This document shows positions 1,588-16,662 of a DNA stretch of 40,438 nucleotides, one piece after another. Source of the stretch: a virus (lineage: Duplodnaviria; Caudoviricetes); IMG/VR virus record IMGVR_UViG_3300022936_000006, positions 1 to 40,438 of that record. The stretch is one strand, 5' to 3'. Positions within the stretch are counted from its first letter, which is position 1, and the number at the start of each line of letters is the position of its first letter. The position numbers and the translations under genes are program-made. The notes below the pieces were generated by a model, which worked only from the letters and a program-made list of their open reading frames with translations, did no database searches and was not told where the DNA came from.

Positions 1588-1604
1588 TTTAAATGGTTTT
1601 AAGT

Positions 1605-1912
1605 GTAAAAATTACAAAGTTGGGTATGAAAATTACAAAGTTTAGGGTAAAAATTACAAACATTTGCCAAAAAATTACAAAGTTGAAAATGCTAAGTTGT
1701 TGTTAATTAGTATAATTAGCTTAAAAATTACAAACATTACAAACATTTTATATATTTTACGTGTGTGATGTAAAATAGGTATATATATAAGGTTTAACTT
1801 TGTAATTTTTGTAATTTTAGACTTAACCGTTTGATAATGTGTTTTTTAACTTTTCAAACTTTGTAATTTATTTGTAATTACTTTGTAATTTCGGCATCAA
1901 TGTTTGTAATTT
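1605..1912. repeat. Iteron-like repeat array, probable replication origin
   Basis: ATTACAAA at 1611, 1632, 1653, 1674 (21-bp period), 1727 and 1736. Inverted TTTGTAAT at 1799, 1808, 1860, 1871, 1882 and 1903. AT-rich centre; directly downstream of the helicase genes. Confidence 0.8.
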
Positions 1913-3326
1913 TCTTAGTGAACTGGTAGTGGCGAATAGACTGGTAAACGTAATCTTTGCATTCGTAACCATTGTATTCAGAGAAAGCAATAACCCATTT
2001 ACTAAATAATTGCTTACTGAAATATTTTTGGGTAAGGTACTCATCAAACTGATTAACAAAATTATTATAAAGCGTAGCCCTGGGTATCGTAACGAATTCA
2101 AAATCCTTCATGAAATCTATGAAATCTATATTTGTTGCAGCTATTAATCGTTTTTCAGGCAAGTTTATAAGCTCTTGATGTACAAGTCCGTTCCTTAAAT
2201 AAAATTGGCAGCATTCAATTATAAACGCGTCAAACAAATAAAACTCATTAGCGTCCCAATCAGTGAACATCATCTTTTTAAATTCATCAAAAGGCGTTCT
2301 ACTACGGTTATAGTACTGGCTTATTTCTAATTCGTGTCTACGCCTAAAATGGCTATTACCTGCGCCCTTTATGGCGTAATTCGTAGTTATAACTACTTTT
2401 GGAGTATCATGAAAACTATAATGTATAGCCTGCATTCCTTTCTTTTCTACATTTATACCATCGGTAAGTACAGAAAATAGCCGCTCGAAATCAAAAGACT
2501 TATTAACATCCTGAAATGACAACAACTTAGTGTCAGGATTTACAGATTGGTACACAAAATTCTTATCAAAATTGAATGTCTTGCCCTCTATTGTAACAGT
2601 TGTTATAAATTGCTCTATTGCCTTTATCAATATGCCTTTCCCTGTTCCGCCCTCCGGGTTGTTAGATATAACCTCATCATTCAGAATAATCGCCGGGCAA
2701 TATGCCGGGTTTTTGTAATTATGCACCAAAAACCCTAATACACTGCAAATTGATTTATATCTTTCAGGGTCTTGATTACTGATATTATACACGAACTTTT
2801 TAAAATCACTATCAGTTAAATCTTCAGGTTCATTGTAATTTCGGCTAAGTATTTGACTTTCCCAAATATAACCATCCAAATCAGAGTATTTATGAGTAGT
2901 TATTTTTCCTTCTGTAACTTTAACTATGCAGTTCTGGTAATACAATTGCATAGCGTTTTTACGGTCTTTACGGAACTCAATTTTCTTTTCCGGTAAAGTC
3001 TCTATAAACTCGTATGATGTTGCTTTAGCGATATTCTTTAGAAAGAATTGATGCATGTGCCTGGATTCTTTAGAATCTACTATAAAGTTTATAATTTCAT
3101 CTTTTAACTCTTTAGTATCTACTACGCGTACAATGTTGTCTATTATTCTGATAGGAGAATATTTACCATCCCCATCACTATAGACAAAATAACCGCGTTC
3201 AACAAAAAATGCTGTTAAGTTAACGAAATCTATTTCCCATTTACCCTGCCCGTTTGTTGAATATAAATCAAAGTGATTGTATTTTTTTTCTGCTGCTATG
3301 TGAGCAATTGACATTTTTGCGCTCAT
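1878..3326 (-). CDS. P-loop NTPase, primase-associated (SF3/D5-like) helicase
   Basis: Walker A PEGGTGKG, Walker B-like LLSFQD, VVITTNY sensor-like motif and RRRHELE; adjacent to the origin. Confidence 0.75.
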   Translation of the reverse strand: MSAKMSIAHIAAEKKYNHFDLYSTNGQGKWEIDFVNLTAFFVERGYFVYSDGDGKYSPIRIIDNIVRVVDTKELKDEIINFIVDSKESRHMHQFFLKNIAKATSYEFIETLPEKKIEFRKDRKNAMQLYYQNCIVKVTEGKITTHKYSDLDGYIWESQILSRNYNEPEDLTDSDFKKFVYNISNQDPERYKSICSVLGFLVHNYKNPAYCPAIILNDEVISNNPEGGTGKGILIKAIEQFITTVTIEGKTFNFDKNFVYQSVNPDTKLLSFQDVNKSFDFERLFSVLTDGINVEKKGMQAIHYSFHDTPKVVITTNYAIKGAGNSHFRRRHELEISQYYNRSRTPFDEFKKMMFTDWDANEFYLFDAFIIECCQFYLRNGLVHQELINLPEKRLIAATNIDFIDFMKDFEFVTIPRATLYNNFVNQFDEYLTQKYFSKQLFSKWVIAFSEYNGYECKDYVYQSIRHYQFTKKITNIDAEITK

Positions 3327-4732
3327 ATGAATTTAGCTGATAAGTGAACTGCCATATTTGGTGATATTGTTTGACTTGATTGTGTGTGTAATTTCTTTAT
3401 TGCCGACTCCATGACTTTACGCTGTTCGTATAAATCTAATGGCTTCGTCTTGACTTTTTCGGCTATTGATATTATAGTTTTTTCCATCGTTATCGGGCTA
3501 TTTTTTGGTACAATTAAAGTGTCTGGTACAAGTTGTAAAGCTATAACCATATCCGAATAAACTACCTCACGCGGAAATAAATGGCCGCAAAATTCACAAA
3601 TCGTACAAGACATATAAATCATACAGCCACATTTAGGATTTGGACATTCTTTCATTGGAGCTACCCCGGCACCAGGCTTATCTGGAAAATGAAATATACT
3701 ATGCCAGTCATGCCTATGCTGAAAATAACCATGCTGCGCAACATTACCAACCTGATCAATAATATTAAAATACTCTTTTCCGGGATAAGGACGTGAACCC
3801 CTGCCAATCATCTGAAGCCATAGGGCTAATGAAGTAGTAAGGCGATTTGGTATTACGTTTATAATACTTGGCTCATCAAACCCGGTTGTAGTCATGTCTA
3901 CAGATTGCAATATAGCATTAGGGGTTTCTTTAAACCACTCGTAAATTTCATCTATTTGGCCCTGTTTCATAGATCCGTCTAGGTGTCTGGATTCGTAGCC
4001 ATGAGATACAAAGCATTCGTTAACCTTTAGGCTATGTTCGATTAATGTATTGAACACAACCGTTTTAAGGTTCTCACCTATCCTTACGTAATTAGCCAAA
4101 ACCCCATCAACTAATTTGGTTTTACTTAATTGGTCGGACATTGATTTTAAATTGTAATCCCCCGCTGTTTTCTTAAGCGCCTTTTTATCGAGCAGATTTT
4201 CAGGACAATGGTGATGAGCTTTTACAAGTCCCTGTGTTGGATCTCTTTGATGTATTTCAATTAATTCACGAGTAGAAATTCCAACAACTATTTGCTCATA
4301 ATCAGCTTTCATAGGATGTTTTTTACTTGCCCCGATAGGTGTAGCCGTAAATCCCAAAATAACCGAGTCACGGAAATGTTCAAATACTTTTTTCATTTCA
4401 CCACGATGCGCTTCATCGATAATAATCAAATTTGTATTTAAATAATTACCTTTTTTTAGCTGATTAACAAACCCTAAAACCATATGCACAGGCACGTGAC
4501 CAGCTCCGAATTTTTCCAGCTTGGCTGCTGCTTGATTAAGTAAATTTTCCCTGTGTACTAAAATACGGCAGACATGATCTGGATTTGCCTTTAAGTACCT
4601 CGATAATAGATAAGCGAACTCAACGGTTTTACCACCTCCTGTTCCTAGTTGAACGCAAATACGTTTATGCCCTTTTGATATAAGCCGTACAATTGCATTT
4701 ACCTGATCTTTTTGGTAATCTCTTGGTGTCAT
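3323..4732 (-). CDS. Superfamily 2 (DEAH) helicase with C-terminal Zn finger
   Basis: PRDYQ, GTGGGKT, DEAH, TATP, TTGFDEP, QMIGRGSR; CPNPKC..CEFC. Confidence 0.92.
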   Translation of the reverse strand: MTPRDYQKDQVNAIVRLISKGHKRICVQLGTGGGKTVEFAYLLSRYLKANPDHVCRILVHRENLLNQAAAKLEKFGAGHVPVHMVLGFVNQLKKGNYLNTNLIIIDEAHRGEMKKVFEHFRDSVILGFTATPIGASKKHPMKADYEQIVVGISTRELIEIHQRDPTQGLVKAHHHCPENLLDKKALKKTAGDYNLKSMSDQLSKTKLVDGVLANYVRIGENLKTVVFNTLIEHSLKVNECFVSHGYESRHLDGSMKQGQIDEIYEWFKETPNAILQSVDMTTTGFDEPSIINVIPNRLTTSLALWLQMIGRGSRPYPGKEYFNIIDQVGNVAQHGYFQHRHDWHSIFHFPDKPGAGVAPMKECPNPKCGCMIYMSCTICEFCGHLFPREVVYSDMVIALQLVPDTLIVPKNSPITMEKTIISIAEKVKTKPLDLYEQRKVMESAIKKLHTQSSQTISPNMAVHLSAKFI

Positions 4733-4843
4733 AAAATAAAAAAAGCCGTGACTGTGAGAAGTTTAGCCACGGCAATTTGAAATTAGTGTTTAACACGCAT
4801 CCTGCTTCTCACTTCAAAATGCATGCCCTCGAATAATAAGAAA
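4733..4843 (-). ncRNA. Structured 5' leader: two hairpins with complementary loops plus a U-tract (element A)
   Basis: 11-bp stem with loop AAGUGAGAAG; 9-bp stem with loop AAACUUCUCAC followed by U7; lies between promoter 4844-4851 and ATG 4732. Confidence 0.65.
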
Positions 4844-4851
4844 CAAATATA
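4844..4851 (-). promoter_or_regulatory. Bacteroidota -7 promoter element TATATTTG
   Basis: Matches TAnnTTTG; intergenic. Confidence 0.7.
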
Positions 4852-5793
4852 CTACAAATTATCTAAAATGTAATCACACAAATCGTATCCTTTTGGTTTT
4901 GATTGTATCATTTTCATAGACCATTGACCTGGTATTAGTTCCTGTAATTGGTTCATTTTTTCAAGCCAACGTTCTTCCGCGCCAACATCAGGATATAATA
5001 CAATTTTACGACCTTTTAGTACATGGCACCTTTTGTAGGTTAGGTTTGTCAGGCTTCCTGATGCAAGCCATATAAAGCCAGGGTATTTTATGGATGCCAC
5101 AATTGCGGTCTTTTCTGATTCAACTATGCAGACTGTTTTATCCAGGAAACGGTTTAATAAATGCTCTCCGTATAAGCACGTATCAAAATTAAAATTAGGT
5201 AAACGCAAAACTTTATGCACCCATGTTATTAAAGGCTTAGGCTCCTTTACCCGCTTACCTGTTTCCGGGTTATATTGCATGATCTTACCGGACCTAACAT
5301 TCCAGTTTATATCAATATACCAAAATATAACTGCTCCCGGCCAATGTTTTGATGTACTTATATGGTGCTGTAAATCATGTAAAGGATAAATTGAATAAAG
5401 CCATTGACGGAAATTATTTGATCTACTCCCTTTAAGTAAAGCACCTCTAAATATATCTTCTGGCAAATAGTCTGTTGGCGGTTCAATATATTCTTTGGTT
5501 ACAAATCCAGGGTCTAAGGTTATATTTTGCGTGTCAGCTATCCATTTAATTGCCTCGTTCTTGGATTTACCAGTATGGCTAATAACAAAATCAATAACAT
5601 CCCCACTTTTACCGCACCCAAAGCACTTAAATATATTTTTGGATGCGGATACCGTAAATGATTTTGAACGCTCGTTATGGAACGGGCACGATGCAGTATA
5701 ATTTGCACCATCACGTTTTAATTCTACAAAATGCCCAATCACTTTAACGATGTCAGAATTTTGCTTTATGGATTTAATTTCTGCGATTGTCAT
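4852..5793 (-). CDS. DNA primase-like protein (CHC2 Zn finger plus TOPRIM-like domain)
   Basis: CPFHNERSKSF..FKCFGCGKSGDVI; IVESEKTA and VLYPD TOPRIM motifs. Confidence 0.88.
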   Translation of the reverse strand: MTIAEIKSIKQNSDIVKVIGHFVELKRDGANYTASCPFHNERSKSFTVSASKNIFKCFGCGKSGDVIDFVISHTGKSKNEAIKWIADTQNITLDPGFVTKEYIEPPTDYLPEDIFRGALLKGSRSNNFRQWLYSIYPLHDLQHHISTSKHWPGAVIFWYIDINWNVRSGKIMQYNPETGKRVKEPKPLITWVHKVLRLPNFNFDTCLYGEHLLNRFLDKTVCIVESEKTAIVASIKYPGFIWLASGSLTNLTYKRCHVLKGRKIVLYPDVGAEERWLEKMNQLQELIPGQWSMKMIQSKPKGYDLCDYILDNL

Positions 5794-8295: not shown

Positions 8296-8803
8296 ATTTT
8301 AAATAAGCTTGTTTTACTTCTTCTGTTAACTGGTATGCTTTTTCAATGGCTTCAACGGTTGCTTTTGCTGCATGCGCTTTTTCAAAATTAGCTTCTGAAA
8401 ATACCGGCTTTACTTTTTCTGCTGGGGGTACTGGATTTATCCTAATGCCGTCCTGAATTTTACCGAAAGCTTTAATATCTCTCAATACGTAGAACTCAAT
8501 TCTTATGCCGCCCCAATTTCCAATGTTCCAGCAATCTATTTCGTTAAAACCTCTTTTACGGGCAAATGAAGATATAATTTTACGGTTAGTTGAATTGAGA
8601 ACCATATCTTTTATGTCCTCTACAAATGAGCAAAAATAACCGTCTGTCTTTTCCCCCGATACATCAACCTTAGTATCATACCAAGCTTCTTTTATGGTAA
8701 AAATTAAAGGACGACCCTCTATTGACATTGCATCTAAATCCGCAGCAGCTAAGTGCGTTGATTTCCTGTATTTCCTACAGTCTATATTTGTTTCTTTTGG
8801 CAT
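8270..8803 (-). CDS. Hypothetical protein, candidate ssDNA-binding/annealing partner of the exonuclease
   Basis: HLAAADL..VLNSTN..WGG..GIRI pattern of a phage family often found beside exonucleases; function inferred from position. Confidence 0.5.
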   Translation of the reverse strand: MPKETNIDCRKYRKSTHLAAADLDAMSIEGRPLIFTIKEAWYDTKVDVSGEKTDGYFCSFVEDIKDMVLNSTNRKIISSFARKRGFNEIDCWNIGNWGGIRIEFYVLRDIKAFGKIQDGIRINPVPPAEKVKPVFSEANFEKAHAAKATVEAIEKAYQLTEEVKQAYLKYVTDNTTA

Positions 8804-9885
8804 TACAATAATGTTTTAGAATCCTGAATAATAATTTTTTTAACCAATGCCATAGCTTCATCAACCCGAAGCTTCATAGCCTTACCTTGATCACTTTGCA
8901 AATCTGGAAACTCTAAACGTAAAGCCTCGAATTTAGCAAAGTAGGCTTTCACCTTTTCTTTGTCCGGAGCAAGTAAAGCAGCTTTCTCTTTGGCTATTTT
9001 TTCGGCTTCTTCTGCTTCAATTCTGGCTTTATCCTGCTCAATAGATAACTGTTCGGCTTCTTGTTTGGCTTTTAGTTCATTTGCTATACGGATGTTTTCG
9101 GCTTGAATTGCCGCTAATTTATCGGACTCAATCTTTGCTAACCTGGCAGCTTCCTGATCTTTTTTATCCTGCTCAATTTTAGCCATCCTATTTGCTTCCG
9201 CTTGCTTTTCCTGCTCCGCTTTCAGTTTTTCATTCTCTAACCGGATTCGCTCGTTTTCTTCTGCTTGTTTCCGTTCAGCCTCCAATCGCTCTGACTCTGC
9301 TTTTTTTTCTGCCTTAATTCGGGCCAATTCAGCAGCTTTTTCTTGCTCAATTTTTGTGTTAAAAGCTAGCTTTTCATTCTCTAAATACTTAGCAAATGAT
9401 TCTTCATCCATAGCCCGTAAGTCAACAAACTGGTTAATTTCTCCGTACGGCTCAAGTAATGCAACTCGTTCCGTATACAGCACTTCTTTTTTAGCGGCTT
9501 CAATACGCTCCTGATGTTTTTCTACTGCTGTAAATTCCGCCTCTGTTAACAGGCATGTGTTTTTTACAACGTTAAAAAGATCCTGTATTAAATTCCCTTC
9601 CACCAAAATGATAGCCTTTAAATCATCTTTGATTGTTTCGGCGCCAGTTCTGATTTTAACCATTTTTAAACGAGCTTCACGAGCCTTTTTACTGTCCTCT
9701 GCTGTTGGACTAACTTTATCCAAATCAGATAGCACAGCAGCCAATTCGTGGTACTGATTCATTGATGGAGCAAACGCAACCGCATGTTGTTGTGCTTTTG
9801 ATAATTCGATTTTACTTTTTGAAACAACCTCTGTAAATTCTGGTTGCTCGATTACTGATAATTCTTGTGTTTTAACTTTTGCCAT
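8803..9885 (-). CDS. Coiled-coil protein of the recombination module
   Basis: Long E/K/A/R-rich helical region; AREARLKMVKIRT and APDKEK motifs. Confidence 0.7.
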   Translation of the reverse strand: MAKVKTQELSVIEQPEFTEVVSKSKIELSKAQQHAVAFAPSMNQYHELAAVLSDLDKVSPTAEDSKKAREARLKMVKIRTGAETIKDDLKAIILVEGNLIQDLFNVVKNTCLLTEAEFTAVEKHQERIEAAKKEVLYTERVALLEPYGEINQFVDLRAMDEESFAKYLENEKLAFNTKIEQEKAAELARIKAEKKAESERLEAERKQAEENERIRLENEKLKAEQEKQAEANRMAKIEQDKKDQEAARLAKIESDKLAAIQAENIRIANELKAKQEAEQLSIEQDKARIEAEEAEKIAKEKAALLAPDKEKVKAYFAKFEALRLEFPDLQSDQGKAMKLRVDEAMALVKKIIIQDSKTLL

Positions 9886-9989
9886 TTTATTTTTTTAAAA
9901 AAACCCGCTTCAAATTTCCCAGGCACTACACTGGTTATTATTCACGGGCATTGAAATTAGGTTAACAAGGTAGTGCGCTTGTTTGTGGT
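9886..9989 (-). ncRNA. Structured 5' leader with complementary loops plus a U-tract (element B)
   Basis: AACAAG[CGCACUAC]CUUGUU; CCAG[UGUAGUGC]CUGG on top of a GCCCG/CGGGU stem followed by a U-tract; linker CUAAUUUCAA identical to element A. Confidence 0.6.
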
Positions 9990-9994
9990 GCAAT

Positions 9995-10858
9995 TTAGGT
10001 ATTCTTTTCCTGCCTGAATGTAACATTGTAGTGATGCAATATATCTTCTAAATCTGATGGGTAAAGTACCGTTTGTACATCATTCAAACGCATAATTGTT
10101 ATGGTATCCTGTCTTATTATTACTGTTTTTCCTCCCCACAATGATTTGGTTATTTCTACAGGCTTATTCTGTTCATCTATCCATTTAAGGGCGGCTTCTT
10201 TTGAATGGAAAGCTTTGGATTTATCTATAGACTCACGTTCCATGCATGTATATGTAACATCGGCCTGTAATTGGAATGGATCTTCTAAGTACCATTCCCC
10301 TCTATTTTGACCACCTAGATATTTTCGGTACACTGGCGTAATAAAATCACCAACATAAAGCGGTACGCCGTCCTCTGACTTCATGACGAATACCGGAACA
10401 GGAATATTGCATTCGGCAGCGAAATCTGAGAAGGGAACTATTTTATAGCCAGCCCCATTAAATGAATGCTGAAATTTGTCATGATACTTTATTGCATTTG
10501 GTAGCGGAAAATAAACACCCCTTCTGTTTACAGCATCAACTCCCGATGACCACACCCACCCCTTACCCTTGTAATGCCCCATGAGCAATTTAAACTCCCT
10601 TTCATTATTCACCTGAATAGCAACCTTACCATCAAGCAACCCGGTTTTTTCGGGTTCGGCTGGTATTATTTCCCCCCATTTTTCTACTGACGCTCTATAT
10701 ATACAAAAACCAGTAGGTGATTCTGCCACTGAATCACACCCATCAATAAAAAACTTACCCGTACTAACGGCAGTTTCATTTGGACTCAATACACTGTGGT
10801 ATTTTGTCCCCGCAGGATAATCCCGCATTGCTTTTTCTAATAGTTGGTACTTTTTCAT
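9995..10858 (-). CDS. Hypothetical modular phage protein (start revised to MKKYQLL at 10858)
   Basis: ORF track; the upstream extension is occupied by another small ORF. Confidence 0.7.
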   Translation of the reverse strand: MKKYQLLEKAMRDYPAGTKYHSVLSPNETAVSTGKFFIDGCDSVAESPTGFCIYRASVEKWGEIIPAEPEKTGLLDGKVAIQVNNEREFKLLMGHYKGKGWVWSSGVDAVNRRGVYFPLPNAIKYHDKFQHSFNGAGYKIVPFSDFAAECNIPVPVFVMKSEDGVPLYVGDFITPVYRKYLGGQNRGEWYLEDPFQLQADVTYTCMERESIDKSKAFHSKEAALKWIDEQNKPVEITKSLWGGKTVIIRQDTITIMRLNDVQTVLYPSDLEDILHHYNVTFRQEKNT

Positions 10859-10863
10859 CTTTT

Positions 10864-11001
10864 CTAAAACCAAATTGTTTTCACTGTTAAAATTAATAGG
10901 CAAATTAAAACCACTACCGCCCATATAAGGACGATATTTAACGGCTGGCTGCCCGGCTTATCCTCGTGCATGTATAAGCCTTTAAGGTGTTTGTTTTTCA
11001 T
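10864..11001 (-). CDS. Small single-TM protein (45 aa)
   Basis: MKNKHLKGLYMHEDKPGSQPLNIVLIWAVVVLICLLILTVKTIWF, manual translation. Confidence 0.6.
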   Translation of the reverse strand: MKNKHLKGLYMHEDKPGSQPLNIVLIWAVVVLICLLILTVKTIWF

Positions 11002-12315: not shown

Positions 12316-12549
12316 ATGAAAACAATTAAACTAGGAGATGTAATGCCAGACCCCTGTAAGAAATGCGGGTTAAAATATGGGTACCAAGTGACGGATAATG
12401 TCCGAGGAGGATATACCATTATGTATACCGGAGATGGAGATGTAGATGGTGGTGCCTATACTGATTCTATGTACACATCCAAATTTGGTACCAGAGCATA
12501 TTGCTCTAACTGTGGAAATGATTTAAAGCTTAAAGTTGACCGGACATGA
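12316..12549 (+). CDS. Zn-ribbon protein
   Basis: CKKCG...CSNCG. Confidence 0.7.
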   Translation: MKTIKLGDVMPDPCKKCGLKYGYQVTDNVRGGYTIMYTGDGDVDGGAYTDSMYTSKFGTRAYCSNCGNDLKLKVDRT

Positions 12550-12965
12550 CCGATTTCAAAACAATAGAACCAAAGCCAGGGGTTAAGCTGTTGGCAGTTA
12601 AGGTGCCGGAGAATAGCCGAAACTTTGGCACCGACAATTCATATCAGACCAGAACCAGAATAATGTATTGGGACACTCTGAATGAATGGAACTCATCTTT
12701 CTTTGTTGAGGGCAAACACACCTTATTAGGTATATCCACTGAACTAACAGAAGAGCAGTGCTTGGAAATTATGCCTGAATTTGAATGTCCAAATCAATGG
12801 TGTGAAAACGGATACATTGATCAAGGCTATAACCAAAAGTGGCGCTGTGACTATTGCCAACAAGAGGAAGACGATGAATCTGGATATAGGGACAGGTTAG
12901 CCACCCTAATGCAGTCAGAGGGGTTGACAAACGGCAAATATTTAATTTTAAAAATAGTAGAGTAA
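12546..12965 (+). CDS. Hypothetical protein with Zn-finger insertion (paralogue of 13967-14362)
   Basis: LLAVKVP..ELTEEQ..CPNQWC..CDYC. Confidence 0.7.
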   Translation: MTDFKTIEPKPGVKLLAVKVPENSRNFGTDNSYQTRTRIMYWDTLNEWNSSFFVEGKHTLLGISTELTEEQCLEIMPEFECPNQWCENGYIDQGYNQKWRCDYCQQEEDDESGYRDRLATLMQSEGLTNGKYLILKIVE

Positions 12966-13126
12966 TGGAAGAACATAAATTAAGAATACCTAAAAACTAC
13001 GAGGTAGATGTTGAGAAATTAAAGACATTTGAAGATGTATTATCTATTCTGTCCTGCTTCAAAATATATGTGTCGGATTCAGAACCAAACTTCGAAAAAG
13101 TAAAACCATTTTTAAAGGAGGCATAA
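12965..13126 (+). CDS. Small hypothetical protein (53 aa)
   Basis: MEEHKLRIPKNYEVD...; TAATG coupling. Confidence 0.6.
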   Translation: MEEHKLRIPKNYEVDVEKLKTFEDVLSILSCFKIYVSDSEPNFEKVKPFLKEA

Positions 13127-13128
13127 CC

Positions 13129-13722
13129 ATGAGCAAAGAACAGAACAAAAGCGCAGCTACTAAAGAATGTAGAGTTGTAAAAATACTATCTAATAGAGAT
13201 CAAAATTCTTACGTATTAAATAACAATACAGAAGCATGGGAATGTGATTGGAGTCACCCCGCATATTATCATGTTGATCCAACAGACAAACAACATATTA
13301 TTACTAAAGACACGTTTAAACCAAATCCAAAGTTTTGCTGGAAGATATTAGCCTCAACCGATACAAAACTGGGATTACCCCTTATTCCGAATGACTACCA
13401 AAAAGATACGCTGACGATTGTCTACGAACCCATAAAATGGGATATGAATACTAATCCCTCTTTAGTTGGGCAACTAGCCATCAAAGTCGATCATGAAAAT
13501 TTAGTTGTTAGTCATACTCCGCAATCCAGCCTATTCTCATTGGAAGCAGAGAATAAGGCGCTTAGGGAGGCTCTGACTATAATCGCTAATCCGCTTAAAT
13601 TTCTTCAAGAAAGGGCAAGGTATGAGAATTACACGTTAAACGGCGTAAATGCGTCAAAAATAGCCAACAGTGCCGAATATTTAAAATCAATAGCAGAACA
13701 AGCACTTAAACAGAAACCATGA
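13129..13722 (+). CDS. Hypothetical protein
   Basis: KILASTD..LGLPLIP motif and C-terminal helical segment. Confidence 0.7.
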   Translation: MSKEQNKSAATKECRVVKILSNRDQNSYVLNNNTEAWECDWSHPAYYHVDPTDKQHIITKDTFKPNPKFCWKILASTDTKLGLPLIPNDYQKDTLTIVYEPIKWDMNTNPSLVGQLAIKVDHENLVVSHTPQSSLFSLEAENKALREALTIIANPLKFLQERARYENYTLNGVNASKIANSAEYLKSIAEQALKQKP

Positions 13723-13970
13723 GAAAATTAACAAAAGCTCAAGCTCATATAGTTTCTCTTTTGATAGATGATCCCGATTTGATCATTATGCCAACTTCAT
13801 ATGGAGCGCATCAAGCAAGCATGATAGACCCTACAGGTAAACACAATGAGTTTGGTAGCACATATGTTCAATCATTCTACCAAAGCACATTTGAAATATT
13901 AATTGCTACAGGCATGTTTACAGAGATAAAAAAGGGTCAATTTAAGTTAACTCAAAATATTAAGCCATGA
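13719..13970 (+). CDS. Hypothetical protein
   Basis: ATGA-coupled ORF. Confidence 0.65.
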   Translation: MRKLTKAQAHIVSLLIDDPDLIIMPTSYGAHQASMIDPTGKHNEFGSTYVQSFYQSTFEILIATGMFTEIKKGQFKLTQNIKP

Positions 13971-14362
13971 CCGACCAAATGCAATTTGAAACCAACGGGG
14001 TTGCCGTGTTAGTGGTGACGGTACCTAGTGATTCCTATGATTTTAAAATGCAGGAGTCACAACACCTTTACCCGGGAGAATTTGTACTTACCTATAAATG
14101 TCCTACTACATGGGATGCATATAAAAAGGAATCTTGGAATTGGTCAGTAAGAGGTGATTGGTCTATCCATGCAGTTACACCAGAGATCACAGAAGAGCAA
14201 GCCAAGGTGTTGGTTAGGTTGTTGCCTTGGGGAGCTTATAAAGACTATGAAACACCTCTTAATTGGCATAGTAGCGCAGTAAGATCGCTTCATTCCCTTC
14301 TCCGCTCCTACGGCATAGACCCTAAACAGAAGAATGTATTACTAATTAACCGAAAGAAATGA
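13967..14362 (+). CDS. Hypothetical protein (paralogue of 12546-12965)
   Basis: VLVVTVP..EITEEQA..SLHSLLRSYGI. Confidence 0.7.
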   Translation: MTDQMQFETNGVAVLVVTVPSDSYDFKMQESQHLYPGEFVLTYKCPTTWDAYKKESWNWSVRGDWSIHAVTPEITEEQAKVLVRLLPWGAYKDYETPLNWHSSAVRSLHSLLRSYGIDPKQKNVLLINRKK

Positions 14363-14363
14363 T

Positions 14364-14774
14364 ATGGCAACAAGAGCAGATTTTTACATAAGAAAAAACG
14401 GAGAACTTGAATTTTTAGGTTCCACATCAAACGATTACTACGGTGATTTTGAGAAGTCAAGAACTGAAAAGCATTTTAGACAATCCGTAAATGATTTATT
14501 AGCAGGTAATCAATCCTTACAAGGTAAATGGTATTGGCCATGGAAAACATCATTCATTACTGATGAAGTATTTATTTTCGATGTTAGACCTCAAATTTTC
14601 AATAAACAGGCGGGCATACTATTAGCTAAGGTTCATACAGAAAAAGAGCGTAAAGAGCCTATCCTTGCTTTTTTGCAATATGATAAACGGTACAGCGACA
14701 AATATAGTAATGGAGAAGGCGACCATTACTCAAAACATTGTGAATTTATTGAAATGCCAGTAATTGGTAGTTAA
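14364..14774 (+). CDS. Hypothetical protein
   Basis: MATRADFY..EFLGS..WYWPWKTS motif. Confidence 0.7.
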   Translation: MATRADFYIRKNGELEFLGSTSNDYYGDFEKSRTEKHFRQSVNDLLAGNQSLQGKWYWPWKTSFITDEVFIFDVRPQIFNKQAGILLAKVHTEKERKEPILAFLQYDKRYSDKYSNGEGDHYSKHCEFIEMPVIGS

Positions 14775-14816
14775 CCCCCATCCTATAAACGGGAACTTAA
14801 AACAAGATTGAAAAAT

Positions 14817-15002
14817 ATGGAAAAGTTAAACTGGCAATTATGCCCAAAATGCAATGGCGAAGGATGGGTTATGTTCTATAGATATATTAACTCTACAAAC
14901 GCAAATCCAAAAGTAACATGCAACTTATGTAATGGTTATAAAATCATTTCAACAGAAACAGGATTGCCTCCCAACACATTTACACAAAATCCACAACCAT
15001 GA
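14817..15002 (+). CDS. Zn-finger protein (DnaJ-type CxxCxGxG)
   Basis: CPKCNGEG...CNLCNG. Confidence 0.65.
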   Translation: MEKLNWQLCPKCNGEGWVMFYRYINSTNANPKVTCNLCNGYKIISTETGLPPNTFTQNPQP

Positions 15003-15448
15003 AAGAAAATAAACCAGAATACCAGACAGAAGCCGACTTCATAGATTCTCTTGACATTAGAGAAGTGTATAGGCTTACGGATTCAAGAGAGAAGCCCTAC
15101 GAACTCCTTTCAAAATACAAACAGCACCTGATTGATAACGCCCCGAGTAAATGGATAAGCATAGATGACAGGCTGCCGGTTAACGGAAGTTGGATACTAT
15201 CGTTTGATGAAGAAAGAGGCAGACATATATCATGGTTTGATAAAACTAATGGATGGAAGGACAGAAGTAACAAGAAGTTAAATACAGTTACCCATTGGCA
15301 GCCTTTACCCGCTGCACCAGATCAATATCAATTAGAAGCCGTAGTTATCACTGATGAAGAAATGGAACACCTTTGGAATATTTGCCCGTACAATGATGCA
15401 AGGCAGTCTTACAAATGGATGCAGGAACAATTAAACCCGAAGCCATGA
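14999..15448 (+). CDS. DUF551-like domain protein
   Basis: KWISIDDRLP...VTHWQPLP. Confidence 0.75.
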   Translation: MKENKPEYQTEADFIDSLDIREVYRLTDSREKPYELLSKYKQHLIDNAPSKWISIDDRLPVNGSWILSFDEERGRHISWFDKTNGWKDRSNKKLNTVTHWQPLPAAPDQYQLEAVVITDEEMEHLWNICPYNDARQSYKWMQEQLNPKP

Positions 15449-15585
15449 CCAGAACGCAACGATTAAACCAGCACTGGCAGGCAGCACAGAGGATGATGCG
15501 AATTATAGCTTTAGATGCCGCGTTAACATTCCGATTTAAACCAGAAATACAGTCCAGTTTTTACAGTGAAAGATTTAAGAAATGA
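15445..15585 (+). CDS. Small hypothetical protein (46 aa)
   Basis: ATGA overlaps at both ends. Confidence 0.5.
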   Translation: MTRTQRLNQHWQAAQRMMRIIALDAALTFRFKPEIQSSFYSERFKK

Positions 15586-15962
15586 AACCAGAAGAATTAA
15601 GAAAAGGCAATATAATAAAGGTAATTGGCCGCAACCCTACAACGGTAGAAACAATTTCCAGCAGCGGCATTAATAAATGGCAAGATATGGGTATGAGCGG
15701 TGAAATTAAGTTTGAGGAACTAACAGGCATAGCTTTAACAGAGGCCTTATTAATAAAAATTGGTTTTGAAAAGCATACTATGTTGAAAAACCAATGGCTG
15801 ACATTCTATATCTCAAAAGAGGATGGTATAGGTTTGTTTTTAAGTATAAAAGATATGTTGATTTATTACTCAAATGATCCTATACATCATATAAAGTACG
15901 TACATCAGCTCCAAAATCTATATTTTTCTTTAACAGGGAAAGAACTAACAATTAAATTATGA
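15582..15962 (+). CDS. Conserved Bacteroidota-phage hypothetical protein
   Basis: ELRKGN..LTEALLIKIGF..YVHQLQNLYFSLTGKEL. Confidence 0.75.
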   Translation: MKPEELRKGNIIKVIGRNPTTVETISSSGINKWQDMGMSGEIKFEELTGIALTEALLIKIGFEKHTMLKNQWLTFYISKEDGIGLFLSIKDMLIYYSNDPIHHIKYVHQLQNLYFSLTGKELTIKL

Positions 15963-16129
15963 GAAAGTTTTGGCATTCAATTGGTTTCCATTCATGGGAT
16001 AATTTATGGGATATTTCTTATATTAAACAAGGTAGAATAAGAACATGTAAAATATGCGGAAAGAAGCAGTATTGCTGCGTCCGAGGAACAACGCAAAACT
16101 TAATATGGTATTGGGAAGATGTTAAATAA
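15959..16129 (+). CDS. Small Cys/His protein (56 aa)
   Basis: GFHSW...RTCKICGK; ATGA overlap. Confidence 0.55.
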   Translation: MRKFWHSIGFHSWDNLWDISYIKQGRIRTCKICGKKQYCCVRGTTQNLIWYWEDVK

Positions 16130-16156
16130 CAAACACAGAAAAAAAGGAGATAAAAA

Positions 16157-16453
16157 ATGCAGAACAGAGTAACAGTAGAACAAGTGTTAATGTGGTATAT
16201 TTATACCTCTACATTCACTATGATTTTAAATAAAATTATAGGTTCAGAAATGACAGCAAAATATATGTTATGGAAAGTCAGAAGAAAGTACAAAAGATAT
16301 AATTCTCAATGTGATTATTTCGATTGTAAGCAAATGATTATCACAAACAAAGTTCTTGAAGAAATTGGTAAAAGCATCAGCAACGATGAAAAAAAAACAA
16401 TTTTAGATATTCAGATTGAACGCTTATTTGATGATTTTAAAAATAGAAAGTAA
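16157..16453 (+). CDS. Hypothetical protein
   Basis: 98-aa ORF. Confidence 0.6.
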   Translation: MQNRVTVEQVLMWYIYTSTFTMILNKIIGSEMTAKYMLWKVRRKYKRYNSQCDYFDCKQMIITNKVLEEIGKSISNDEKKTILDIQIERLFDDFKNRK

Positions 16454-16662
16454 TGGTAATAGAAAATCTCTACAAACAATGGTGCAAGGAAACAAAACGA
16501 AGTGGAGGAATTTTAGTTGGCGGTTCAATTAATGAATTTTTCCGATGGGTAGATGTACAGGGTTATAAATTAACTCTTGATTATAGCAAAGTACTCATTT
16601 TACGCACAGATGAAGAAGTGAGAAACGCACAGGTCAACGGGTATACTTATTTAGTTCCATAG
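16453..16662 (+). CDS. Hypothetical protein
   Basis: 69-aa ORF; its 3' end overlaps the convergent spanin gene. Confidence 0.6.
   Translation: MVIENLYKQWCKETKRSGGILVGGSINEFFRWVDVQGYKLTLDYSKVLILRTDEEVRNAQVNGYTYLVP

What the first reader, a model, noticed from the sequence alone, without database searches (positions are those of the whole stretch)
4733..4851. Kissing-loop/terminator RNA leader (element A) ahead of the helicase genes
Seen, on the minus strand: promoter TATATTTG, then hairpin P1 CAUGCAUUUUG[AAGUGAGAAG]CAGGAUGCGUG, linker GUUAAACACUAAUUUCAAAUU, hairpin P2 GCCGUGGCU[AAACUUCUCAC]AGUCACGGC, U7, and the helicase AUG 5 nt later. The loops are perfectly complementary over 8 nt (GUGAGAAG/CUUCUCAC; plus-strand 4805-4812 and 4754-4761). 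Inference: P2 has the form of an intrinsic terminator between a promoter and its gene, so the loop-loop pseudoknot could act as a cis attenuator or antiterminator, or as a small standalone ncRNA. I do not recognise it as a named Rfam family.
Basis: partly seen in the sequence, partly recalled or inferred. Interest (0 to 1): 0.85.

Follow-up and report, generated by a model that had tools for sequence, protein, structure and literature searches.

The report
Kissing-loop gate on phage replication genes
In front of this bacterial virus's helicase genes lies the DNA for a roughly 100-base RNA with two predicted hairpins whose tips match base for base, a design that many related phages, including cultured lytic Flavobacterium phages, keep through matched letter changes; it likely works as a transcription stop that the tip-to-tip pairing can override, but this function is untested.

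Summary
Observation confirmed. The window is a complete 40.3-kb Bacteroidota-type siphophage. Element A (Bacteroidota promoter box, hairpin P1, terminator-like P2 plus U7) lies between the primase and SF2-helicase genes, and its loops are complementary over 8 nt. It is not chance. A search that ignored the loops found at least 7-nt loop complementarity in 48 of 70 stable viral leaders, against 1.4% of cross-pairs. Kissing pairs covary, and the geometry is fixed (41-51 nt between the halves, 90-99 nt in total). Downstream genes are mostly replication-type. Cultured lytic Flavobacterium phage morran9-1 has A's exact loop code; its relatives tooticki6-1 and mumin9-1 carry other codes and other replication modules. 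No Rfam match and no description in nine paper searches. It works like the guanidine-IV kissing-loop antiterminator but lacks its conserved loops; it also lacks the third site of P4/C4 and an antisense promoter. Best reading: the kiss likely hinders terminator closure, and terminated RNA may compete in trans. No expression or functional data exist. This scan has already noted this class on other DNA many times; the cultured-phage link was not in those notes.

The parts
4844..4851 (-). Bacteroidota -7 promoter box TAnnTTTG, abutting the primase stop codon; no canonical -33 box seen; start site predicted near 4840
   Evidence: consensus recalled; the same box heads homologs
4792..4827 (-). Hairpin P1 (11-13 bp) with a 10-nt loop
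   Evidence: 6 of 12 pairs change on both sides in 5 homologs
4805..4812 (-). Kissing half 1 (GUGAGAAG), preceded by two unpaired A
4774..4793 (-). AU-rich linker; shares CTAATTTCAA..TGCC with element B
   Evidence: 2 matches, 0.01 expected
4745..4773 (-). Hairpin P2, 9-bp intrinsic-terminator-like stem with an 11-nt loop
   Evidence: 3 of 9 pairs change on both sides
4754..4761 (-). Kissing half 2 (CUUCUCAC), 43 nt after half 1
4738..4744 (-). U7 tract
3323..4732 (-). SF2 helicase (ResIII/Helicase_C; phrog_16), first gene behind the leader
1878..3326 (-). DUF5906 protein, likely the replicative helicase/ATPase (inferred), second gene behind the leader
4852..5793 (-). Primase (CHC2 zinc finger + DUF6371), upstream gene
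9896..9997 (-). Element B, second leader of the class: variant box TAAATTGC 9997-9990, P1 9983-9964, kiss 9976-9970 with 9929-9923 (7 nt, 40-nt gap), P2 9949-9903, U run, AUG at 9885; leads the operon that contains the YqaJ exonuclease
   Evidence: missed by my scanner and by both covariance models, so weaker than A

Best explanation
Element A is a member of a widespread, uncatalogued family of phage leaders with covarying complementary hairpin loops, and it likely acts as a transcription attenuator in which pairing of the P1 loop with the nascent P2 loop would hinder closure of the predicted terminator and let polymerase read into the helicase genes. Shown: the sequence anatomy, covariation of both stems and of the kiss across homologs, fixed spacing, and position mostly before replication-type genes of phages that mostly lack an integrase. 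Inferred, in falling order of confidence: (1) transcription starts near 4840 from the local box; (2) P2 plus U7 terminates, releasing an RNA of about 100 nt; (3) a kiss formed first closes a ring (P1, linker, P2 5' arm) that slows winding of the P2 3' arm, as proposed for guanidine-IV; (4) the input is the terminated RNA itself, which would build up with phage copy number, occupy the P1 loop of new transcripts with the same 7-8-letter code, and so damp replication-gene expression. Step 4 alone is about 25% likely.
For: Loop-blind search of viral contigs: 48 of 70 distinct stable promoter-plus-terminator leaders have at least 7-nt loop complementarity and 56 of 70 at least 6 nt, against 64 of 4610 cross-pairs with different codes. 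An independent pattern gave 7 of 8 box-bearing leaders with at least 6 nt. Kiss pairs changed on both sides: 6 of 7 (27 sequences), 5 of 7 (8 sequences), 3 of 8 (4 cultured Flavobacterium phages, one with A's exact code). L182/L579 keeps A's loop flanks with another 8-nt code. Gap between halves 41-51 nt in 48 of 48; box-to-stem-end 90-99 nt in 46 of 48 against 37 of 151 other hits, for both short and long P2; this points to a cis, co-transcriptional constraint. 32 of 59 downstream proteins are DUF6291, HTH_36, BT4734/PriCT primase-helicase or SF2 helicase. The cassette's place moves within related replication modules but stays ahead of the replicative genes. Guanidine-IV has the same topology, and there the kiss opposes the terminator (passages of PMC11611296; PMC9788692). 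Kiss columns change about as fast as stems and linker, as expected of a pairing code and not a ligand pocket. In the cultured phages three codes go with three initiator modules.
Against: No transcript, start site, 3' end or read-through measurement exists for any member examined. In A the 9-bp P2 and 20-nt linker may let the kiss coexist with a complete terminator (my geometric estimate), so the kiss need not antiterminate. A has no canonical -33 box; if it is read mainly from upstream promoters, loop 1 is predicted to be buried. In A's five closest homologs the code is invariant while stems diverge (partly fixed by my search pattern), which does not look like diversifying selection. Code and module may travel together by simple linkage (only 3 lineages). 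Many codes precede the same DUF6291 family. 27 of 59 downstream genes are nucleases, others or unassigned. Homologs are related, so counts are not independent events.
Confidence: 0.48

Rival explanations
1. The product is the point: a stand-alone RNA of about 95-100 nt in which the kiss compacts or stabilises the terminated molecule (decoy or protein scaffold); downstream genes rely on leaky read-through or upstream promoters.
For: Tightly fixed length; own promoter box and terminator; in short-P2 members such as A the kiss may coexist with a full P2 (inference).
Against: Sequence, including the loops, is free to change. The element sits a few bases before an AUG, mostly of replication genes, which a free RNA would not need.
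Confidence: 0.2
2. Translational control, as for the IncI/IncB rep pseudoknot or C4: the read-through mRNA keeps P2 12 nt before the AUG, and the kiss or a third site sets ribosome access.
For: Stem ends 12 nt before the AUG in A and often 7 nt in homologs. One NUMOD4-HNH lineage has a third copy of the loop-1 word between terminator and AUG (5 of 38 leaders against 11 of 836 controls).
Against: No third copy near A; all 5 cases are one lineage; the U tract is kept throughout the aligned families.
Confidence: 0.12
3. Protein-dependent antitermination (nut-like): a phage or host factor binds the linker or the kissed fold and controls P2.
For: A and B share a 10-nt linker word at the same place; in one family the linker is far more conserved than P1 or the kiss (0.29 against 1.0 and 0.93 changes per column).
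Against: The word is not kept in A's homologs and linkers of two-leader genomes are not generally alike; no candidate factor was identified.
Confidence: 0.13
4. A ligand-sensing riboswitch related to guanidine-IV.
For: Same two-hairpin, kiss-over-terminator topology.
Against: No Rfam hit; loop letters vary freely and even swap polarity; downstream genes are not transporters or metabolic enzymes.
Confidence: 0.04
5. An ordinary terminator with a chance 8-nt match upstream.
For: Single 8-nt matches can arise in a 40-kb genome.
Against: Loop-blind enrichment, covariation and fixed geometry.
Confidence: 0.01

Closest known systems
Guanidine-IV riboswitch (mepA/GGAM-1) and its variant Gd4v (passages of PMC11611296 and PMC9788692)
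   Same: Two hairpins joined by a loop-loop pseudoknot; the 3' hairpin is an intrinsic terminator; kiss and terminator elongation compete.
   Different: No conserved nucleotides around the kiss, variable code, phage replication genes instead of efflux genes, no Rfam match, no known ligand.
Phage P4 CI RNA with seqA/seqC (passage of PMC4825925) and P1/P7 c4 with c4-a1b1 (table and supplement passages of PMC2864571; mechanism partly recalled)
   Same: Short complementary words inside one phage leader; premature termination ahead of replication or antirepressor genes; a short RNA from the same transcript may act in trans.
   Different: No downstream third site at A, no c4 three-way junction, no Rfam C4 hit, an intrinsic terminator that carries the partner loop itself, and carriers are mostly integrase-free or described as lytic.
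I-complex plasmid replication control (RNAI with stem-loop I and the rep pseudoknot; passages of PMC10724649, pseudoknot seen only in reference titles there) and pT181 attenuation (recalled)
   Same: An RNA loop code upstream of replication initiators; single loop letters can set specificity.
   Different: No countertranscript promoter found (9 of 64 against 6 of 52 controls); complementarity limited to 7-9 nt; phage, not plasmid.
IsrK of Gifsy-1 (passages of PMC4825925)
   Same: A terminated short RNA and a read-through mRNA come from one promoter, and the short form acts on the long form.
   Different: IsrK activates translation in a temperate phage; no Rfam hit here.

Membership tests
Guanidine-IV / Gd4v riboswitch | Two hairpins linked by a pseudoknot, 3' hairpin terminator-like | tested here: met
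Guanidine-IV / Gd4v riboswitch | [quoted passage not shown] | tested here: not met
Guanidine-IV / Gd4v riboswitch | Ligand-dependent read-through | not testable with these tools
   needs probing and termination assays
P4 CI / P1 c4 antisense immunity | Complementary word upstream in the same leader (seqA / a1) | tested here: met
   loop 1 versus loop 2
P4 CI / P1 c4 antisense immunity | Second target downstream (seqC / a2) | tested here: not met
   none near A; only one HNH lineage among 38 leaders
P4 CI / P1 c4 antisense immunity | c4 three-stem fold, Rfam C4 match | tested here: not met
P4 CI / P1 c4 antisense immunity | Temperate lifestyle that needs immunity | tested here: not met
   tyrosine integrase in 1 of 29 records (1 of 14 near-complete), resolvase in 0 of 29; mumin phages described as lytic only; episomal lysogeny not excluded
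Plasmid countertranscript control (I-complex, pT181) | Antisense RNA from an opposite-strand promoter | tested here: inconclusive
   no TAnnTTTG box on the + strand between 2394 and 5041 and no enrichment in homologs; degenerate promoters would be missed
Intrinsic-terminator attenuator (general class) | Terminator between a promoter and the first gene | tested here: met
   by sequence form only
Intrinsic-terminator attenuator (general class) | Regulated termination | not testable with these tools
   needs transcript data or assays

The most novel reading that the evidence does not exclude
Lytic Bacteroidota phages carry an RNA-only copy-number and compatibility control. Each leader's terminated 100-nt RNA blocks, through a 7-8-letter loop code, the antiterminating kiss of new transcripts with the same code. 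Replication genes then shut down as genomes accumulate, co-infecting phages with the same code throttle each other, and codes are swapped together with the origin-binding module, much like plasmid incompatibility groups.
Probability: 0.25. Interest if true: 0.88.

Novelty: new variant of a known kind. Interest (0 to 1): 0.67.

Why it matters
How lytic phages of Bacteroidota time and limit DNA replication is poorly known (my knowledge). This is a common, uncatalogued RNA design placed before their initiator and helicase genes. It uses the architecture of a riboswitch without conserved ligand-binding loops. Finding it in cultured Flavobacterium and Cellulophaga phages, with natural code variants on near-identical backgrounds, makes the mechanism directly testable. 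If the trans model holds, it would add an RNA-coded interference layer between co-infecting phages and give orthogonal, programmable terminators for Bacteroidota genetics.

Tried and rejected
Single-protein locus searches found no relatives; blastn of the region against cultured phages gave only chance hits. The first pattern built on the A/B shared linker gave 4 chance hits. Loop-1 patterns gave mostly coding chance matches: 5 of 53 distinct hits were real, one being the window's own copy; a pattern leaving the code free gave 4 real of 15 distinct. Cellular genomes: 2 plausible leaders among 50 stable hits. Sequencing runs: no RNA holder listed, so no reads were laid. Refolding of read-through transcripts as a general switch: rejected, seen in A but in only 1 of 44 homologs. 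A second complementary site between A's linker and P1 top is not kept in homologs (by eye). Codes differ in all 7 two-leader genomes, but with more than 20 codes in circulation this is uninformative. One search used a mis-registered structure string and is discarded in favour. Cofolding cannot model a kiss and gave only a P1 strand-swap dimer. No such leader was seen before the helicase of phi18:1, pippi8-1 or PF672P1, nor before the primase of phi46:1 or in the P12024S and Leef_1 gaps inspected.

Full report
Context. The window is a complete virus record with 127-nt terminal repeats, 38.6% GC, with terminase, portal, capsid and tail-tube genes. Named helicase relatives are from Cellulophaga, Flavobacterium, Parabacteroides and Nonlabens phages and from Chitinophagaceae, so the host is likely Bacteroidota. 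No tyrosine integrase or resolvase was found. The finding fills the 119-nt gap between a primase (4852-5793) and an SF2 helicase (3323-4732), which is followed by a DUF5906 protein and a repeat array.

Observation. Every stated part is present (coordinates under parts). P1 and P2 fold at -13.5 and -13.2 kcal/mol and the 8-bp loop duplex at -10.1. A terminator-anchored scanner recovered A as the best kissing candidate in the window; the only other hit was a 6-nt match. Rfam gave nothing at E<=1 and only chance hits at E<=10. Seven homologous loci gave no family over the leader either; the one hit, DUF805b, lay elsewhere. A second element, B, lies at 9896-9997.

It is a family. Loci fetched by helicase homology alone already showed the design with other loop letters. 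To avoid circularity I searched with patterns that specify only promoter box, stem ends and U tract. In viral contigs (119 loci; the scan stopped after 38 of 64 parts), 96 distinct hits held 70 stable hairpins. Of these, 48 had at least 7 nt and 56 at least 6 nt of complementarity between leader and P2 loop. Cross-pairing leaders with different codes gave at least 7 nt in 64 of 4610 cases. In cellular genomes (120 loci, 22 of 64 parts) only 2 of 50 stable hits looked real. A second loop-blind pattern gave 7 of 8 for box-bearing leaders; among 33 without the strict box, 3 had 8-nt matches and variant boxes.

Covariation. In a 27-sequence long-P2 subfamily, 6 of 7 kiss pairs change on both sides and 89% of cells pair. 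In an 8-sequence short-P2 subfamily, 5 of 7 do while 9 of 10 P2 pairs are invariant. A's five closest homologs covary in P1 (6 of 12) and P2 (3 of 9) but keep the code; loop 1 was partly fixed by my pattern. L182/L579 has A's loop flanks with a different, still perfect 8-nt code. These sequences are related, so the shuffle controls overstate significance, but slid-partner controls drop to about 30-50% pairing. On trees built without the loop columns (23 of 27 rows kept, 4 out-of-register rows dropped; and all 8 rows), kiss columns change at 3.5 and 0.93 per column, against 3.8 and 1.0 for P1, 3.8 and 0.29 for the linker, and 2.95 and 0.10 for P2. The pairing is conserved, the letters are not.

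Geometry and context. The two halves lie 41-51 nt apart (median 43.5; A 43), and box-to-stem-end is 90-99 nt in 46 of 48 leaders (A 99) against 37 of 151 other hits, whether P2 is short or long. Of 64 selected leaders, 59 downstream proteins were scanned (4 short ORFs and 1 without ORF left out): 17 DUF6291, 7 HTH_36, 5 BT4734/PriCT, 3 SF2 helicase, 9 NUMOD4-HNH, 3 others, 15 unassigned. Reading DUF6291 and HTH_36 as initiators is an inference from position before helicase genes and from the elemoA annotation 'replication protein'. In relatives with the same module the leader sits elsewhere: before a small ORF ahead of the helicase (L007), or between helicase and DUF5906 with primase and helicase adjacent (L063). 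One of 29 records searched (the window and 28 others chosen as carriers or likely carriers) has a tyrosine integrase.

Cultured phages. The design precedes the replication module in Flavobacterium phages tooticki6-1, mumin9-1, snusmum9-1 and morran9-1, in elemoA, and in Cellulophaga phages phi19:3 and phi18:3. morran9-1 has A's code and the same 14-nt P1 top, and is the best hit of the A-subfamily model among these loci (E 2e-4). Across the four aligned leaders 3 of 8 kiss pairs change on both sides with 100% pairing; 4 of the 11 differences between tooticki and mumin are kiss changes. Among 46 records, 28 have the tooticki leader, 16 a mumin-like one and 2 the morran one (sequences read for 4 records). 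The 28 are those with DUF6291 hits and the 16 those with VirE-type primase hits. The tooticki and morran initiators share the C-terminal half but differ at the N-terminus (DUF6291 versus weak DUF1376). Three lineages cannot separate selection from linkage. PMC7077304 (passages) describes these isolates as virulent. In phi19:3, phi18:3 and B the purine-rich word is in P2, so polarity can swap.

Mechanism. The form of P2, its place between a box and an AUG, and the fixed spacing favour a cis attenuator. The only characterised RNAs of this topology that I found, guanidine-IV and Gd4v, use the kiss against the terminator (passages). Free loop letters argue against a ligand. The downstream third site of P4/c4 is absent at A and found in one HNH lineage only, and no antisense promoter is enriched. 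The simplest available input is therefore the terminated RNA itself, which carries both loops; this is inferred and untested. Against the model: in A the kiss may be compatible with a complete 9-bp P2, the -33 box is not evident, and upstream-initiated transcripts are predicted to bury loop 1, a feature not shared by homologs.

Prior art. Nine paper searches returned no description of this class. Seen: passages of PMC2864571 plus supplement passages; passages of PMC11611296, PMC9788692, PMC4825925, PMC10724649 and PMC7077304; passages and supplementary tables of PMC10690425; only the listing of PMC5737381. PMC10690425 lists unnamed phage RNA candidates upstream of NUMOD4, ResIII and VirE genes, and its alignment files, like the supplement of PMC5737381, could not be read, so members may be hidden there unnamed. 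Earlier notes of this scan report the same class in other genomes; they are leads, not support. The words Muminvirus and morran were met in none.

Verdict. A real, conserved, uncatalogued leader design; it works like a kissing-loop attenuator and is not a member of the guanidine-IV, c4/CI or plasmid countertranscript families. Novelty: new variant of a known kind. Interest 0.67.

Noticed in passing
window 9896-9997 (-): Element B, a second leader with a different code, branched P2 and a possible extra helix between linker and the P2 3' side; shares a 10-nt linker word with A that A's homologs lack (unexplained: duplication or a shared factor).
   Followed up: partly
window 1599-1924: Array of AATTACAAA repeats with 21-nt spacing and inverted copies right after the DUF5906 gene; likely the replication origin.
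   Followed up: no
window 4845-4856 with 4798-4820 (-): The promoter-region sequence can pair with P1 and loop 1 in read-through transcripts, forming a long alternative hairpin; specific to A.
   Followed up: yes
L393, L405, L417, L426, L446, 9 nt after the terminator stem: In one NUMOD4-HNH lineage the loop-1 word recurs between terminator and AUG, a seqC/a2-like third site.
   Followed up: partly
L582 11590-11690 and L586 5666-5770 (NC_048844.1, NC_048837.1): A second kissing leader before the NUMOD4-HNH gene of tooticki6-1 and mumin9-1; morran9-1 has a DUF805b RNA and a ParB-like gene at the matching place.
   Followed up: partly
L591 2075-2185 (-) (Cellulophaga phage phi18:3): Leader with swapped polarity whose P2 loop resembles A's P1 loop; sister phage phi19:3 has another leader and another initiator gene.
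   Followed up: partly
window 12316-16662 (+): Block of about ten small plus-strand ORFs, almost all without Pfam match, diverging from the minus-strand early genes.
   Followed up: no
window 8803-9885 and 9995-10924 (-): 360-aa and 309-aa proteins flanking element B with no Pfam, PHROG or NCBIfam match.
   Followed up: no
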